Shown piece by piece: positions 18,001 through 24,000 of a DNA stretch of 25,652 bases. The position numbers were made by a program. The stretch comes from Candidatus Krumholzibacteriia bacterium (GTDB lineage: Bacteria; Krumholzibacteriota; Krumholzibacteriia; WVZY01), in NCBI GenBank assembly GCA_036478295.1, contig JAZGDW010000210.1, forward strand, positions 1 to 25,652. The letters are read 5' to 3'. How positions within the stretch are numbered: position 1 is the stretch's first letter; each line of letters starts with the position of its first letter.

Positions 18001-21000
18001 ATAGAGTTTCCTTCGAGCGGGTGGGCGATACATCATTGTTCGAACATGTACAAGACTCCGGCAGCGCGGCCGACAAGCACCTAGTACTGGGCCCGGAGTC
18101 GCTTATCCAGTTTTCTGAGTTCGTCGATGCACTCTTCCCATCCCGGAAATTCGGACAAGTTCGCCAAACCTTCAGCCGCATTGGCTCCCTCGAAGATCCA
18201 CAATATATTTTGGCCACCTCGTCCGCATTGACGAAGCAGTTCACACCAACGATCTCGTTCACCGACAGCAAGGTAGCCCGATGCGATATAAGAAAAAGCG
18301 TAGCTTCTATGGCCTGCGGCAAAAAACGCTTGTGCGTGTTTCAAGAACAGTTCCTTATCTCCCAGGCCACCATAAAGGCCCGCGATTATATCGCGCACCC
18401 TGTGGTTATCGGGATAAGCGGCCAGCTTTTTTTTTGATATTTCCACACCGGCGGAAAAGATTTCTCTTGCCCTTTCCGGGTCGCCCATTTGCTTGTGGAG
18501 AATTCCGGCGTAGATGAAAACATACATGTTCGACTCGTCCCCAAAGAGTGCTATCGCTCGGTCATAATGAACCGCAGCCGCGTCCCATTCCCCAAGGTTG
18601 TGGTATGAAACGGCGATCCAGGTGTGCACTTCCGGATCCTCGCCGAATTTGCTAATAAAGGTTTGACCAGCTTCCAGAGCCTCGTCATTTTGTCCTGCCC
18701 ATACGTGGGTAAAGACCAGATACCAGTGGGCACCCTGGTTCTCGGGATCGAGTTCGATGATTCGCTGGAATAATGGCACCGCTTTGTCGGGCAGTCCGCC
18801 CAATACGTACGCCTCTCCGCGTACGGAGAGGGCGTCAATATCTTCACGGTCTGCCTGCAGCATCGCCTGCCCCTGTTTCAAGCACTCTTCGCTTTTCCCC
18901 CACTCCATGAAGACGCGCACGAGCCCTCTTCTGGCGGCGGCGGATTGCGGATCCCGCTCCAGCGCCTTCCGAAAATTGGTTTCGGCCACTTCCAGACTCT
19001 TTACCCCTCCCCCTCTGCCGTAGAAGAAACGGTTTTGGTACACGACACCGATTCCCACGTACGCTTCGGCCAGGTTGGGATCGATGTCGACTGCCTTCTC
19101 GAAGAACGCCAGCGCCCGGTTGTCTCCCTCTGTCGTATCCTCCTGCAGCCCCAGCCCCCCTCTTAGATAGTGCTCGTAGGCTTCGACACTTTGCGCGGCC
19201 GGCCTGGCGAGCTGCGTTTGTTCCTGTCCGGTTATCCGACCCTTCAAACTCGACGCCGCAGCGATGGCGATCTTTTTCTGCACTTGAAAGAGATCGGTGT
19301 AAGGCTCCTCGAATTCCTCTACCACGTGCTGCGCATCGCTCTTTACATCGACCAGCATCACGCGGCCCTGTATCCGATCGCCCAACCGTCTCAGGGTGCC
19401 GACAATAATCACGTCTACCCGCAAGGCCTTGGCGATATCCCGCAAATCCATCGACGCATCGGAAAAACGCCGGGAGGTCGACCACGGTGTGACGCGCAAG
19501 CCGGACAGCTCGCTCAGTCGCGCGGCGAGTGTTTCGCTTATTCCTTCTGCGAGATAGTTATTCTCGCTTGGAGAAACGTCGTAGTTAACCAGCGGAAGCA
19601 CGGCGACTTTTGTAAGTCGCTGCGCACCATCCAACCCTATCAGACCTGCTTTCCAGACGACCGCCCCTGCAACAACAATGATGAGCGCCATGATCGCCCA
19701 CGGCAGGGGACGCCGCAGCAGGCGTGACACACGTTCCACGACGCCGCTTCGCCTTATCGTCACGGGCGCGTCCGTGTCCACCCTGGGCGATTCCCCCCGG
19801 ATTGCCCGGAGGTCCGCTTCGAACTCCTGCGACGTCTGGTAGCGCTCCGCCGGGTCTTTTGCGAGCGCCTTGAGCACCATGCGGTCCAGCTCGGTGTCGA
19901 TCTCAACCCTGTGTTGACTGGGCGGCTTTGCATCTTCGTGAACCGCCATGTAAGAGACGGCCTCGTGACGCTCCGCTATAAAGGGCAGCTTCCCGGTCAG
20001 CATTTCATAGAGCACGACGCCCAGCCCGTAGATGTCCGAGCGCTGATCGGACTTCTCTCCTCTCAAGACTTCGGGCGCCAGGTAGGCTGTCGTCCCGATC
20101 GCCACACCGGACCTCGTCAGCCGCGACGCCCCTTCGGGCAGCGCCAGCCCAAAGTCCACGATCACGACGTGGCCGTCCTCGGCCGTCATGATATTGCGCG
20201 CCGTCACATCGCGGTGCAGAACTCCACCCGAGTGGGCGTGCCCGAGCGCCTCACAGGCCTCACGCGCGATGCGCGTGGCTTCGCTGATGGACACCGTTCC
20301 CTCGCCGATGCGCGCGGCCACCGTCTTGCCATCGATAAACTGCATCGCGATATAGACCCGGTCGTCCTCCTCGCCGGCGTCGTACACCGTCGCGATACCG
20401 GAGTGATGCAGATCCGAGGCCGAGCGGGCTTCACGGAGCAGGCGCTTGCGCGCGTCGGTGGAGGTGGAGAGAGATTCGGGGAGGAACTTGAGGGCGACCG
20501 ACCGATCGAGCAATGGGTCTTCGGCTTTCCACACCGTGCCCATGCCGCCTTCGCCGATCTTGGCGACGATCTTGTAACGACCAATGGTCCGACCGATCAC
20601 CGGTGCACTCCGTTAGGGTTCAGAGAACAGTAGAGGGGCGAATACAAACAGGATAGACGAAACGGCATGCGTATTCCAAGCGCATTCTACCTGGCATAAC
20701 CTGCCGTCCCCCTTGGAGTGCTTCTTGCAACTAATTCCCATACGAAAGGCACAACTCGCCCGTCTGCGCAACCATGAGGAAGGTGCTCGTGAATCGGTTT
20801 CAGCTTCTCATTGTCCTGACAGCCTCCATATTCCTTGTCTCCGGTTCAGCGCTCGGCGAACACGCTCCCCGCAACTGCGTCGCGTGTGGCGATCCGATTA
20901 CGGGCGCGAGTTACGAAACGGATGGCTCATTTTACCATCCCGAGCACTTCGCCTGTGCACATTGCGGCCTGCCGATCAAAGGCGCGTACACAGTCTACCG

Positions 21001-24000
21001 CGAGCGAAACTATCACGGTGACTGCTTTCAGACACACGTCGCCCTTCACTGCAGCGTCTGCGACCAAACCATCCAGGGCGAATACCTCATCGATTTCTGG
21101 GGCAATACCTCGCACCTGCGCCACCGCGGTGACGTGGTGCGCTGTGATTTCTGCAACCGCTTCATCGTCGGGCACCTGGGCGATAACATGATGCGCTTGC
21201 AAGACAAGCGCCACCTGTGCGGCATTTGCAGCCCAACGTCGATCACGAACCTGGTCGAAGCCCGGTCCCTCATGAGCGAGGTCGCCCAGCACATGCAGCG
21301 TTTCGGTCTCGGCGTCGACCCCAATCAGATCGAGTTTCATCTGGTCGGCGTGAAGAAACTCCAAAAGCTCGCGCGCAAACGTTCCGACAGTGTAACGGGC
21401 TTTACCGACTGCGAAGCGCGCAAGAGCCTTTTCGGACGGACCGAGCACCAGTCGATCAAGGTCTACCTGCTAAACGGCATGCCCCGCACGCAGATGGTCA
21501 GCACCCTCGCACACGAGCTCACGCACGTGTGGCTGTTCGTGCAAGGCCGCCTGCGTCACGACAAAGCGCTCGCCGAGGGCAGCTGCAACTACGCCTCGTA
21601 CCTCGTGCTGCAAAACATGGGTGGCGATGAGGCCGCCTACATCATCCATAATATGGAACGCGACAAGGACCGCATCTACGGCGGTGGTTATCGCCGCGTC
21701 AAACGCTATGTCGAAAAACACGGCATGGCCGAATGGATCGCGCTGCTCAAGAAGCGCGACACCATGGTATCCAGCTTCTAGCCCCTTAAAAAACCGCTCT
21801 GTACTGAGAAGCCGCGCACCCAACGGGGGGCGCTCCGGCTCAAAAGATCATCACGTGCAGGCGCCGGGCTCGCGCGCCCGCAGCTCTTGTGTACACTCCC
21901 GCCCGTCGTACCGCAGTGCACAGCGCTCCCGCAGACCGTTCTGCAGCACCCACTCTCCTTGAGTTTCCACGTGACTTGTTGACAAAAATCAAGTAACAAT
22001 AGCGATAACAGGGGTTTATATTATTATCACAACCGCAAGGAGGACGTCGCCATGAAGACGTCAGCAAAGAATATTCTGACCGTGACGACACTCGGGGTGA
22101 TGTTCGCGAGCGTGCTGTACAGTGCGCCACCGGCATCCGCGCAAGAATCGCAGCGAAGCACGACCCAGGCGAGCATGCGGGGTATCTTTCAATCACTGAC
22201 CGCCGCGTATAACTATAGCCTCGACCCGCCCGCGTTCGAAGATCCGGCGAACCATGAAAGCGTCCTCACCGCACTCCGCGCGCTCGCGGCGGACGCCGCC
22301 GCGCTGGAGGAACACGGCGGTGGGCTCGACCCGAGCTTCGATTACCTGCGCCGCTCGCTGACCAAGGACGCCCAGGATGCGCTCCAGCGTTTCAAGGACG
22401 GCCACTACATGGGCGCGCGGTTCATGCTAACCAAGCTTACCGAGAACTGCGTGACCTGCCACTCGAGGATTCCACGCAAGGAAGCCTTCGACGTGGGAGG
22501 TCACTTTCTTAAAAAGGCCAAGATCAAGAACCTGCCGCCGGTCGAACGCGTGAACATCGAGATCGCGACGCGCCAGTTCGACACCGCGCTCGATACGTAC
22601 GAGGAAATGTTCCGTGCCGCCGACATGACACCGGAACGGCTCACGCTGGTCGGCGCGTTCGAGGGGTACCTGAAAGTCTGCGTGGGAGTGCTGAACGACA
22701 CCGGCCGTCCCGTCGCTACCTTCAAGAAATTCAACAAACGGGTGGACATGCCGTCTAATCTGAAGGAACTCGTAGCCGGCTGGTCCGATTCGCTGAAGAA
22801 ACTGAAGCTCGAAGAGGCAAAGGGCAAGGAGCTCGTGGTGGCGAGAACTCTGATCGGGGATGCGAAGATCCAGCGGCGGTTCCCAACGGATCGCCGCGGA
22901 CTGGTTGATTTCATCGCGGCCACGGCGCTCCTTCACCGCTACCTGAGGTCGTCGCCGTCCAACAAGGCCGATATATCCGAAACGTATTACCTGCTCGCGG
23001 TGGCCGAGTCGATTATCACGCGCTCGTTCTGGATCTCGGAAACGGATTTTCTGCTGGAACGTGCCATCCGCGAGGCACCCAAGTCACCTTTTGCAAGCAA
23101 GGCGTATGATTTTCTGGAGGAATACACGCTCGCCGGGCACATGGGACGATCGCGGCAGGTACCGGCGGACGTGCGCGCGAACCTCGCCAAGCTCCGCGAA
23201 ATGATCGAGAATTGAGCGACGCGTGTCGCAAGGTGTTACACCCTTCGGCTCATGTCCTCGCGCGCGTCTAAAGGTCAGAGCGCGCTGCGCACTGCCGCAG
23301 CATTTCGCGCATTGTAAGAAGTGGCGGAGCTCAAGAAATCGCCTCACGGCGCAACACCTTGCGACACGCTGTCTGACTGTAAAAGGGGGCGGGGCGTTGG
23401 ATTGTTGACAGAGCCTTCGCGGGAACAAGTCAGGGGGGCGCCTGTTCCCGCAGCGCGTTCTCTCGTCACTAACATGAGCGAAGGCGTGTCGAGATGGGGG
23501 TTCTCAGGCGAGTTCCGCAGGCGCGCTACCAAGTGTCTATGAGCATGAGACTCGCGCGCCGAGGACTGTCTGAGCATGAGAACCCCCATCTCGACACGCC
23601 TACCGCGGAAAGATCTCGTTCAGCCGACGAACGGCGAGCTCGAGCCGGTCGGGCGCTTCGCCGGTGAAGCAGATGCGGATGTAGTCGCCGAAGTCCTTTC
23701 CAAAGTCCTCCCCGGGCGCGACCGAGACACCGTTGCCCAGGCAGGCGTCGATGACCTCCCAGTAATCCCTCCCGTCCAGATAATCCTTTATGGGAAAAAA
23801 CAGGAAGTACGTGCCCTCAGGGACCTGCGGCGAGATCTCGAGACCCTGGATGAACATGTCGCGGAGTTCGCGGCTGTGGTCGACGAACGCCGCACTCCAC
23901 TGCGACCGCGTCTCAACCGCACTCACCATCATCTGCTGCGATAGTGTGGACGGGCCGTAGAGCTGGTGAACCATGATTTTGTTCAGGTTGCGCAGCACCG

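What a model noticed while it worked through the whole genome (the two positions that open the first line are those of the whole stretch)
20789..21781. Secreted bacterial LIM-DA1 peptidase with the full plant DA1 core architecture
g01222 (330 aa) has a signal-peptide-like N-terminus, a canonical LIM zinc finger, a second LIM-like finger and a DA1-type HExxH metallopeptidase, and its only Swiss-Prot relatives are plant DA1/DAR organ-size regulators. I read it as a bacterial member of the DA1 peptidase family, which a published survey calls land-plant-specific, suggesting that plants obtained the LIM-peptidase core from bacteria (or the reverse). New would be a prokaryotic LIM-domain protease and an outgroup for DA1 mechanism and origin.
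Evidence so far: Pfam LIM (30-77) and DA1-like (221-276) over gathering cut; the sequence shows paired CxxC/HxxH/HxxC ligands of a LIM finger, a second CxxC...CxxC finger and HELTH at 242. The five Swiss-Prot hits are Arabidopsis DAR2, DAR4, DA1, DAR7 and rice HDR3, 22-26% identity over residues 24-317, E 6e-14 to 1e-10. LIM is found in at least 14 of 35 genomes of the order but only 374 of 189,784 bacterial genomes; DA1-like in 468. PMC4007552 surveyed 354 genomes including 249 bacteria and reports DA1-like genes only in plants (passages read, call 126).
(Added by a program. Inside this text positions count along the whole contig: contig position 1 is position 1 of the stretch shown here. "Call 12" and the like, gene names such as g00115 and contig names such as C1 are that model's own, and its searches are not shown. 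The text may have been shortened before it was handed on; [...] marks where a part breaks off. The agent that wrote the report below was given it as the finding of a first reader that could run no searches.)

Follow-up and report, generated by a model that had tools for sequence, protein, structure and literature searches.

The report
Exported bacterial LIM-DA1 zinc peptidase
This gene encodes an apparently exported bacterial relative of the plant growth-control protease DA1 (two LIM zinc-finger modules plus a zinc peptidase); it is real, but such bacterial relatives are already described and catalogued, so it is an untested member of a known family.

Summary
ORF 20774-21781 (+, 335 aa) carries a signal-peptide-like N-terminus, a canonical LIM domain, a second LIM-like finger and a DA1-type HExxH-X16-E peptidase. 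It aligns collinearly over residues 33-319 with a plant DA1 (22% identity).

The novelty claim does not hold:
- Dong et al. 2017 (passages read) already align DA1 with Roseiflexus proteins, citing Burroughs et al. 2011.
- NCBI names close homologues 'protein DA1'.
- The family spans many bacterial phyla.
- This scan has reported exported bacterial LIM-DA1 peptidases on at least 8 other genomes.

In a careful tree (54 rows) eukaryotic DA1 proteins form one clade (100/100). Their nearest bacterial relatives are a Fusobacteriales/Opitutia/Desulforapulum group (98/89), not this protein. That fits a bacterial origin, but the root is not inferred.

The signal peptide is clade-specific. It occurs in FCB-type lineages and is absent from spirochaete, Sericytochromatia, actinobacterial and other forms. 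No gene neighbourhood is conserved.

Most likely function: a Sec-exported gluzincin endopeptidase whose tandem LIM module binds substrate peptides. No substrate is known.

Verdict: new member of a known kind, low-to-moderate interest.

The parts
20774..21781 (+). Whole gene, 335 codons plus stop: exported LIM / LIM-like / DA1-type peptidase
   Evidence: ORF. Pfam LIM and DA1-like over their cut-offs. 44 full-length homologues.
20774..20857 (+). Residues 1-28: predicted Sec signal peptide. n-region MRKVLVNRFQ with 3 K/R, hydrophobic core LLIVLTASIFLVS, c-region GSALG; likely cleavage after A-L-G28.
   Evidence: Kyte-Doolittle 12-residue maximum 2.98 at residue 11. 44 of 56 distinct relatives have such a segment just before the first LIM cysteine. 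No signal-peptide predictor was available, so the cleavage site is inferred.
20876..21025 (+). Residues 35-84: canonical LIM domain (C35 C38 H55 H58 / C61 C64 H81 C84)
   Evidence: Pfam LIM 39.7 bits, residues 35-82. Paxillin LIM4 E 2.8e-5. Ligands conserved.
21050..21229 (+). Residues 93-152: second, LIM-like double finger (C93 C96 H114 H117 / C124 C127 C149 C152)
   Evidence: Not called by Pfam. The model's residues 31-156 superpose on two-LIM structures: PINCH LIM4-5 at Foldseek E 8e-7; TES LIM2-3 Z 9.9 and PINCH Z 9.1. It aligns with the plant LIM-like region.
21245..21778 (+). Residues 158-335: gluzincin (thermolysin/M1-like) peptidase domain of DA1 type
   Evidence: Pfam DA1-like 47.7 bits. 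VIA-align Z 11.4 to tricorn factor F3 and Z 10-11 to M1 aminopeptidases over 158-335. pLDDT mostly above 90.
21512..21526 (+). H247-E-L-T-H251: zinc-binding and catalytic motif
   Evidence: H247, E248 and H251 invariant in 18 of 18. Aligns with HEMMH of plant DA1, the motif mutated in DA1(pep) (PMC5322733).
21575..21577 (+). E268: predicted third zinc ligand (HExxH-X16-E, as in plant HEMMHX15EE)
   Evidence: Invariant in 18 of 18. Spacing read from the sequence. Plant motif quoted.

Best explanation
The gene encodes a member of the already recognised bacterial LIM-DA1 family.

Proposed mechanism:
1. The pre-protein is exported by Sec, and its signal peptide is probably cut after Gly28.
2. That leaves a soluble periplasmic or secreted protein of about 307 residues.
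3. The protein has two consecutive LIM-type double zinc fingers (four structural zinc sites) packed against a gluzincin peptidase domain. The catalytic zinc is held by H247, H251 and E268, with E248 as the general base.
4. By analogy with eukaryotic tandem LIM domains, which bind extended peptides, the LIM pair most likely recognises and positions a segment of a specific protein substrate for endoproteolytic cleavage. It would therefore be a processing protease of envelope or extracellular proteins, not a bulk degradative one.
5. It has no ubiquitin-binding motifs and works outside the cytoplasm, so the ubiquitin-dependent activation known for plant DA1 cannot apply.

Shown here: domain composition, ligand conservation, predicted fold, N-terminal features and place in the family tree.

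Inferred: export, the cleavage site, metal content, activity and the role of the LIM pair.
For: Domains and motifs:
- Pfam LIM and DA1-like are over their cut-offs.
- All zinc ligands and HExxH...E are invariant or nearly so in 18 diverse homologues.

Structure:
- The AlphaFold2 model has pLDDT 88.2 and pTM 0.77.
- Residues 31-156 match two-LIM structures.
- Residues 158-335 match gluzincin catalytic domains at Z 10-11.
- The Atlas model matches a Streptophyta 'protein DA1' cluster at TM 0.73 over residues 6-335.

Homology to plant DA1: collinear BLASTP alignment, E 2e-17.

Export:
- 44 of 56 distinct relatives have a hydrophobic segment in the 40 residues before the first LIM cysteine. That covers every FCB-type lineage sampled except the single Cloacimonadota row.
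- For the Cloacimonadota row the script picked the wrong finger; its N-terminus is hydrophobic too.
- Basic residues precede the segment, and small residues sit at -3/-1.
- In 9 of 11 Ignavibacteria/Melioribacteraceae and 2 of 2 Calditrichota sequences, [A/G/S]-Q lies 3-6 residues before the first LIM cysteine (strings printed, counted by eye). A glutamine after the signal-peptidase I site is reported for 77% of predicted substrates in Ignavibacterium album (PMC5837995, passages read).

Compatibility with cysteine-zinc fingers outside the cytoplasm:
- The genome (91% complete) has no Pfam match to DsbA, DsbB or VKOR.
- Near-identical DNA occurs in marine-sediment metagenomes.
Against: - No signal-peptide predictor was available, so the N-terminal segment could be an uncleaved anchor.
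- Cysteine-rich zinc fingers outside the cytoplasm are unusual.
- The missing Dsb genes come from an incomplete genome.
- No substrate, partner or conserved neighbour was found among 50 loci, so the substrate class is a guess.
- The Pfam DA1-like match covers only part of the model (profile positions 77-133 of 213 for the best stretch).
- Plant DA1 is latent until modified, so the bacterial enzyme may also need an unknown activator.
- No bacterial member has been assayed in any paper I could find.
Confidence: 0.75

Rival explanations
1. The N-terminal hydrophobic helix is not cleaved but tethers the protein to the inner membrane, with the LIM-peptidase facing the periplasm. It would be a membrane-associated processing peptidase.
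For: The hydrophobic core is 13-18 residues long. The AlphaFold2 model draws it as one helix, residues 8-24. Clostridial relatives are fused to long multi-pass membrane regions. From memory only: the abstract of Burroughs et al. 2011 speaks of prokaryotic LIM domains as partners of membrane-associated peptidases. That paper was not held.
Against: Small residues at -3/-1 (A-L-G) and helix-breaking G/S after the core are typical of cleaved signals. Ignavibacteria and Calditrichota relatives end the segment in [A/G/S]-Q, as signal-peptidase I substrates of that group do.
Confidence: 0.2
2. The domain stays in the cytoplasm (N-out/C-in anchor or a mis-called start), and the protein works like the signal-less bacterial and plant forms on cytoplasmic substrates.
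For: Zinc fingers are normally cytoplasmic. Spirochaete (0 of 7), Sericytochromatia, Fusobacteriales and 'Hadarchaeota' MAG forms lack any hydrophobic N-terminus, as do the actinobacterial ones.
Against: Three basic residues lie before the hydrophobic core, and the stretch after it has net negative charge. By the positive-inside rule (general knowledge) that puts the N-terminus inside and the domain outside. Both candidate starts (ATG 20774, GTG 20789) include the segment. It is conserved in 44 of 56 relatives.
Confidence: 0.05
3. The bacterial genes descend from a plant or algal DA1 transferred into bacteria, the reverse direction raised by the first reader.
For: An unrooted tree in which eukaryotes are one clan cannot by itself exclude a root inside or beside that clan.
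Against: Bacterial forms occur in more than ten phyla with several architectures: one to three or more LIM modules, no LIM1, giant membrane fusions. Bacterial branch depth exceeds that of the eukaryotic crown, and the midpoint root falls among bacteria. A starred branch (98/89) joins eukaryotes to only three of the bacterial rows.
Confidence: 0.05
4. The peptidase works with the neighbouring membrane Ser/Thr kinases, for example by trimming their periplasmic TPR domains.
For: The gene lies divergently next to a kinase-TM-TPR gene (18081-20600) that ends a tandem run of five similar ORFs. A kinase gene lies within about 1.1 kb of the DA1-like gene in G196, G198/L022, G179:C313/L026 and L021. 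G000 has only 33 Pkinase matches in 3.5 Mb.
Against: The same-genus genome G206 has no kinase within 4.1 kb upstream or 3.5 kb downstream. Position and orientation differ between loci. 12 of 17 loci of the order, and all other phyla sampled, show none beside the gene. These genomes are kinase-rich (3-49 matches), and relatives are not independent.
Confidence: 0.08

Closest known systems
Bacterial LIM / DA1-like peptidases (Pfam PF12315 with PF00412; 'protein DA1' in NCBI annotation of MAGs; Roseiflexus proteins cited by Dong et al. 2017 after Burroughs, Iyer and Aravind 2011)
   Same: Same architecture and length, with all ligands conserved. Identity is 71-73% to the nearest relatives and 28-55% to others. 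The protein sits inside this radiation in every tree.
   Different: Nothing of kind: it is one more lineage (Krumholzibacteriota). Its signal peptide is shared with FCB-type lineages but not with spirochaete, cyanobacteria-related, clostridial or actinobacterial forms.
Plant DA1/DAR ubiquitin-activated peptidases (Arabidopsis DA1; MEROPS M102)
   Same: Collinear LIM, LIM-like (four CxxC/H pairs) and HExxH-X16-E peptidase. Predicted structures superpose at TM 0.73. The C-terminal YG-x-GFR motif is shared.
   Different: Only 22% identity. No UIMs. A signal peptide replaces the cytosolic N-terminus. No ubiquitin system to activate it. Outside the eukaryotic clade (100/100) and not in its nearest bacterial group.
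Eukaryotic tandem LIM modules (PINCH LIM4-5, Lhx3/LMO4 LIM1+2, TES LIM2-3)
   Same: Residues 31-156 match as two consecutive LIM domains (Foldseek E 8e-7 to 1e-4; Z 8-10).
   Different: The second module has six rather than two residues between its two zinc sites. The pair is fused to a peptidase and is apparently exported.
Gluzincin peptidases (M1 aminopeptidases, thermolysin, SprT/Spartan)
   Same: Catalytic fold and HExxH...E zinc site. Weak SprT-like similarity.
   Different: SprT-like is under its Pfam cut-off (22.9 against 25.6). Sequence identity to M1 and thermolysin chains is 10-16%. None of these carries LIM domains.

Membership tests
DA1-like peptidase family (Pfam PF12315 / MEROPS M102) | Match to the DA1-like profile over the curated cut-off | tested here: met
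   47.7 bits against 25, two stretches, best at 226-281. The whole-genome scan gives the same place.
DA1-like peptidase family (Pfam PF12315 / MEROPS M102) | Extended active-site motif HExxH-X15-EE or equivalent (HEMMHX15EE in DA1, PMC5322733) | tested here: met
   H247ELTH251, then 16 residues, then E268. The first E of the plant 'EE' pair is Ala267 here. Invariant in 18 of 18. Aligned with the plant motif.
DA1-like peptidase family (Pfam PF12315 / MEROPS M102) | Canonical LIM followed by a LIM-like domain with four CxxC/H pairs, N-terminal to the peptidase | tested here: met
   Pfam LIM at 35-82. Pairs C93/C96, H114/H117, C124/C127 and C149/C152. Two-LIM structural matches.
Plant DA1/DAR subfamily (ubiquitin-activated) | Tandem ubiquitin-interaction motifs before the LIM domain | tested here: not met
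   No UIM in Pfam for P0001. The plant controls P0070 and P0071 give UIM_2.
Plant DA1/DAR subfamily (ubiquitin-activated) | Membership of the eukaryotic clade | tested here: not met
   Eukaryotic rows form one clade at 100/100 without the query, and likewise at 99 and 100 SH-aLRT in the quick trees.
DA1-like peptidase family (Pfam PF12315 / MEROPS M102) | Zinc-dependent endopeptidase activity | not testable with these tools
   Needs expression and assay. No bacterial member is reported as assayed in the papers found.
Sec / signal-peptidase I substrates | Basic n-region, hydrophobic h-region of 10-15 residues, small residues at -3 and -1 | tested here: inconclusive
   The features are present by inspection and hydropathy, but no trained predictor and no experiment were available.
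SprT-like / Spartan peptidases (PF10263) | Match over the curated cut-off | tested here: not met
   22.9 bits against 25.6. Spartan chains score E 0.33-0.39 by sequence and Foldseek E 0.015.

The most novel reading that the evidence does not exclude
Cysteine/histidine LIM zinc fingers here work outside the cytoplasm, in a sediment anaerobe that lacks the Dsb/VKOR thiol-oxidising machinery. The exported LIM-peptidase would process the periplasmic TPR sensor domains of the membrane Ser/Thr kinases encoded beside it. That would be a prokaryotic, extracytoplasmic counterpart of plant DA1 cleaving the receptor-like kinase TMK1 (PMC9546594, search listing and start of abstract seen).
Probability: 0.06. 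Interest if true: 0.6.

Novelty: new member of a known kind. Interest (0 to 1): 0.25.

Why it matters
The plain reading is a catalogued but never assayed bacterial protease family, so this window adds a lineage, not a concept.

Three points keep some value:
- The family gives a simple, ubiquitin-free model of the LIM-peptidase module that controls organ size in crops. An exported bacterial form should be easy to produce and crystallise, and the Protein Data Bank copy holds no DA1-type structure by sequence.
- Zinc fingers exported to the envelope are unusual. They would be worth a metal and redox study.
- The trees made here indicate a single eukaryotic clade. It also holds green algae and stramenopiles, and it is nearest to one bacterial subgroup. 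That sharpens the origin question, which the plant literature still treats as 'plant-specific'.

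Tried and rejected
Reaching plant sequences through the word-indexed protein search: failed three times. The queries were the single protein, alignment A1, and the C-terminal 100 residues of P0031. No plant protein was returned.

Scan of genome contigs for a back-translated A-HEMMH-x-W:
- 80 loci were examined.
- 5 were true DA1-like genes: L125, L130, L157, L168, L172 (E 1e-39 or better against the A1 profile).
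- 53 others gave only weak hits (10-23 bits) and 22 gave none.
- By their context (HEMMHHWFGD...NEGFA) most of the rest look like M1-type aminopeptidases. That recognition is recalled and was not checked with Pfam.

Conserved gene neighbourhood: among the window and 49 loci, the only cluster shared by more than 4 loci was the DA1-like gene itself. The downstream 387-aa gene recurs only in the same-genus genome.

Other searches that gave nothing useful:
- NCBIfam: no family for the protein.
- PDB by sequence: only LIM domains and weak Spartan; no DA1-type entry.
- Promoter and terminator scan: nothing beside the gene.
- Expression: no RNA holder listed.
- Earlier notes by place: none.

Papers: Burroughs et al. 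2011 was not held under its PMC id or PubMed id. What I say of its content is recalled or taken from the citing papers. PMC3417536, PMC4506424, PMC6652019 and bioRxiv 2022.06.21.497003 were searched for relevant passages and hold nothing on bacterial DA1 homologues.

Trees: the careful tree of all 87 rows did not finish in two runs, so only its quick version is used. The careful tree is of 54 rows.

Full report
THE OBJECT

The frame 20774..21781 (+) is open for 335 codons from an ATG. The same-genus orthologue keeps the residues MRKVL before that point (L003), which favours the ATG.

Pfam results:
- DA1-like: 47.7 bits against a cut-off of 25; best stretch 226-281.
- LIM: 39.7 bits against a cut-off of 22.9; residues 35-82.
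- SprT-like: a sub-threshold match (22.9 against 25.6).
- No UIM.
NCBIfam gives nothing.

The sequence itself shows three metal sites or site groups:
- A canonical LIM ligand set: C35, C38, H55, H58 / C61, C64, H81, C84.
- A second double finger: C93, C96, H114, H117 / C124, C127, C149, C152.
- The catalytic motif H247ELTH251 followed after 16 residues by E268. This is the spacing of the plant motif HEMMHX15EE quoted by Dong et al. (PMC5322733).

In an alignment of 18 diverse homologues, 11 of these 16 finger ligands are invariant, as are H247, E248, H251 and E268. H81, C96 and H117 are kept in at least 90%.

STRUCTURE

An AlphaFold2 model built on that alignment has mean pLDDT 88.2 and pTM 0.77.
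- Foldseek against the PDB puts two-LIM structures first. PINCH LIM4-5 scores E 8e-7, followed by Lhx3, LMO4, LMO2 and TES, all aligned over 120-140 columns. The second finger is therefore structurally a LIM domain, although Pfam does not call it.
- An exhaustive VIA-align search matches residues 158-335 to gluzincin catalytic domains. Examples are tricorn factor F3 (Z 11.4, rmsd 2.9, 153 aligned), M1 aminopeptidases (Z 9-11), lugdulysin, thermolysin (Z 8.5) and MATCAP (Z 8.5).
- The PDB copy holds no DA1-type chain by sequence, either for the single protein or for the profile.
- The ESM Atlas's own model of this protein superposes on a Streptophyta cluster named 'protein DA1 isoform X1' at TM 0.73 over residues 6-335.

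HOMOLOGY TO PLANT DA1, TESTED DIRECTLY

The word-indexed protein search never reached plants. I therefore scanned the metagenome collection for a back-translated A-HEMMH-A-W.
- There were 92 matches, of which 80 loci were fetched.
- 71 of those 80 hold frame segments that match the bacterial A1 profile at E <= 0.01.
- Most are split as by introns; a few are intron-less.
- Two intron-less contigs give full-length proteins of 475 and 470 residues, P0070 and P0071.
- Both carry UIM, LIM and a complete DA1-like domain (318 and 342 bits).
- P0070 lies in a 90% cluster named 'protein DA1' of Castanea and Quercus.

BLASTP of the window's protein against P0070 gives one collinear alignment: residues 33-319 against 116-461, 22% identity, E 2e-17. 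It runs through both LIM modules, the linker, HExxH, the EG motif and YG-x-GFR. The 'full plant DA1 core architecture' is therefore real.

HOW NEW IS IT

It is not new.
- Dong et al. [quoted passage not shown] They speak of an 'ancient conserved LIM-like domain' and cite Burroughs, Iyer and Aravind 2011 (passages read).
- The 2011 paper was not held. From memory only, its abstract describes prokaryotic radiations of LIM domains as partners of membrane-associated peptidases.
- All 44 hits of the first protein search carry PF12315, and 43 of them also carry PF00412. Four are named 'protein DA1' by NCBI in Krumholzibacteriia, Latescibacteria and Zixibacteria MAGs.
- The Atlas lists bacterial clusters of the family whose commonest phyla are Krumholzibacteriota, Fidelibacterota, Bacillota, Pseudomonadota and Bacteroidota.
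- A scan of one genome per species found at least 130 relatives, and the best 80 were kept. They include Latescibacterota, Zixibacteria, Ignavibacteria/Melioribacteraceae, Spirochaetes, Cloacimonadota, Neomarinimicrobiota, Calditrichota, Opitutia, Sericytochromatia, a cyanobacterium, Fusobacteriales, Clostridia and Actinomycetota, the last including the isolate Naasia aerilata.
- MEROPS lists the family as M102 (PMC8643629, passage read).
- This scan's own notebook holds at least eight earlier reports of exported bacterial LIM-DA1 peptidases on other genomes, all filed as members of a known family. I saw these after stating my own reading.

It sampled only 249 bacterial genomes.

It is also outdated for eukaryotes. 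I looked up 20 of the best 150 representatives that a plant DA1 query finds.
- Nine carry organism names, all eukaryotic: Fagaceae, Trapa (twice), Physcomitrium, Netrium, Ostreobium, Epipyxis, Parmales and Lagenidium.
- One more comes from EukProt without an organism shown.

I found no paper that assays a bacterial member.

FAMILY TREE

Using the domain envelopes of the A1 profile, I assembled 87 rows.
- 33 eukaryotic-type representatives, which I chose from the top 150 for covering the core.
- 54 bacterial rows, including one from a MAG labelled Hadarchaeota.

The careful search on this set did not finish. Its quick tree shows:
- the eukaryotic rows as one clade (SH-aLRT 99);
- the actinobacterial and clostridial forms, which lack LIM1, on the far side of the midpoint root.

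I then dropped 33 rows:
- four long branches (P0045, P0053, L075, L077);
- the fragment L080;
- 28 further rows, to thin redundant groups.

The careful tree of the remaining 54 rows and 311 columns finished. It shows:
- Eukaryotes one clade, 100/100.
- Actinobacteria plus Clostridia one clade, 100/100, on a very long stem (4.1) whose attachment is unresolved (57/53).
- Eukaryotes joined to a group of three bacterial proteins (Fusobacteriales L061, Opitutia L066, Desulforapulum L157) at 98/89.
- The query with the Latescibacterota-type proteins P0005, P0006 and P0023 (94/86), away from that group.

The bacterial A1 profile scores the eukaryotic rows at 80-183 bits and the actinobacterial/clostridial rows at 59-78 bits. 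This agrees with eukaryotes lying within the LIM1-bearing radiation.

These results fit a single transfer from bacteria into an ancestor of green plants, with later spread to stramenopiles. The tool does not infer a root. Only part of the 'eukaryote' labels rests on names. The letter make-up of 13 rows departs from the model. So the direction is favoured, not shown.

EXPORT SIGNAL

The first 28 residues have three basic residues, a 13-residue hydrophobic core and the end G-S-A-L-G.

Among 56 distinct relatives, 44 have a hydrophobic segment (12-residue Kyte-Doolittle mean of at least 2.0) within the 40 residues before the first LIM cysteine.
- With the segment: own protein, Krumholzibacteriota 13 of 13 and Krumholzibacteriia 1 of 1, Latescibacterota 3 of 3, Zixibacteria 8 of 8, Ignavibacteria/Melioribacteraceae 11 of 11, Marinimicrobia 2 of 2, Calditrichota 2 of 2, plus GN15, one uncultured bacterium and Opitutia at 1 of 1 each.
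- The one Cloacimonadota row was missed by the script's choice of finger, but its N-terminus is hydrophobic too.
- Without the segment: Spirochaetes (0 of 7, and these also lack LIM1), the Fusobacteriales, Sericytochromatia and 'Hadarchaeota' MAG proteins, and the actinobacterial forms.
- Clostridial forms are 1,200-2,000-residue proteins that begin with several hydrophobic segments.

In 9 of 11 Ignavibacteria/Melioribacteraceae and 2 of 2 Calditrichota rows, the segment ends in [A/G/S]-Q a few residues before the first cysteine (strings printed, counted by eye). A glutamine after the signal-peptidase I site is typical of Bacteroidetes and is reported at 77% for Ignavibacterium album (PMC5837995). 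That argues for real cleavage sites rather than anchors.

No trained predictor was available, so export and cleavage remain inferences.

A zinc finger rich in cysteine would be at risk in an oxidising periplasm. The window's genome (90.9% complete) has no match to DsbA, DsbB or VKOR, while the control genomes do. Near-identical DNA is held by marine-sediment metagenomes: two runs hold half or more of the sampled words, and one of them may be the source.

SURROUNDINGS

Upstream and divergent lies a gene for a Ser/Thr kinase with a membrane segment and TPR repeats (18081-20600). It is the last of five equal-sized tandem ORFs.

Downstream lies a 387-residue ORF with no Pfam family. It recurs only in the same-genus genome, at 79% identity.

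Across the window and 49 loci from other genomes, no gene family other than the DA1-like gene itself is shared by more than four loci.

Kinase genes lie within about 1.1 kb of the DA1-like gene in five loci counting the window: G196, G198/L022, G179:C313/L026 and L021 are the others. The same-genus G206 has none, and neither do 11 other loci of the order. These genomes hold 3-49 kinase matches each. I take this as a weak lead only.

VERDICT

The gene is a new member of a known, unassayed bacterial family. Its most interesting feature is LIM zinc fingers that apparently work outside the cytoplasm. That feature is shared by the whole FCB-type branch and has already been noted by this scan.

Noticed in passing
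window 7664-20600 (-): Five tandem ORFs of 837-858 aa. The last is Pkinase + membrane segment + TPR repeats. Kinase-domain matches lie 174, 2772, 5380 and 7970 bp from the DA1-like gene (the list was cut at four). This looks like a paralogue array of membrane Ser/Thr kinases with periplasmic TPR domains.
   Followed up: partly
window 22052-23215 (+): A 387-aa ORF with a signal-peptide-like N-terminus and a CxxCH (haem-c-type) motif. It has no Pfam or NCBIfam family and is conserved only in the same-genus genome (79% identity).
   Followed up: partly
whole genome G000: No Pfam match to DsbA, DsbB or VKOR in a genome that is 90.9% complete, while the control genomes match. It has 33 Pkinase matches.
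   Followed up: partly
proteins P0174, P0177, P0118, P0184, P0193: Eukaryotic DA1-like proteins are not confined to land plants. Named members occur in Netrium (Zygnematophyceae), Ostreobium (green alga), Epipyxis and Parmales (stramenopiles) and the oomycete Lagenidium, at 34-47% identity to a Fagaceae DA1.
   Followed up: partly
L070, L076, L082, L087, L092 and other clostridial loci: Proteins of 1,237-1,996 aa in gut Clostridia start with several hydrophobic segments. They carry only the LIM-like + DA1-like part, usually at or near the C-terminus (in L092 about 400 residues before the end). This architecture is very different from the 330-aa exported form.
   Followed up: no
L052 (contig of a MAG labelled Candidatus Hadarchaeota archaeon): A signal-less LIM-DA1 protein of 327 aa, 30% identical to the query. 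It groups with a Zixibacteria protein in the tree (94/94). This is either an archaeal acquisition or a binning error.
   Followed up: no
L061, L066, L157: Three bacterial proteins (Fusobacteriales, Opitutia, Desulforapulum MAGs) form the nearest bacterial group to the eukaryotic DA1 clade at 98/89. They would be the better 'outgroup' for plant DA1 studies than the window's protein.
   Followed up: partly
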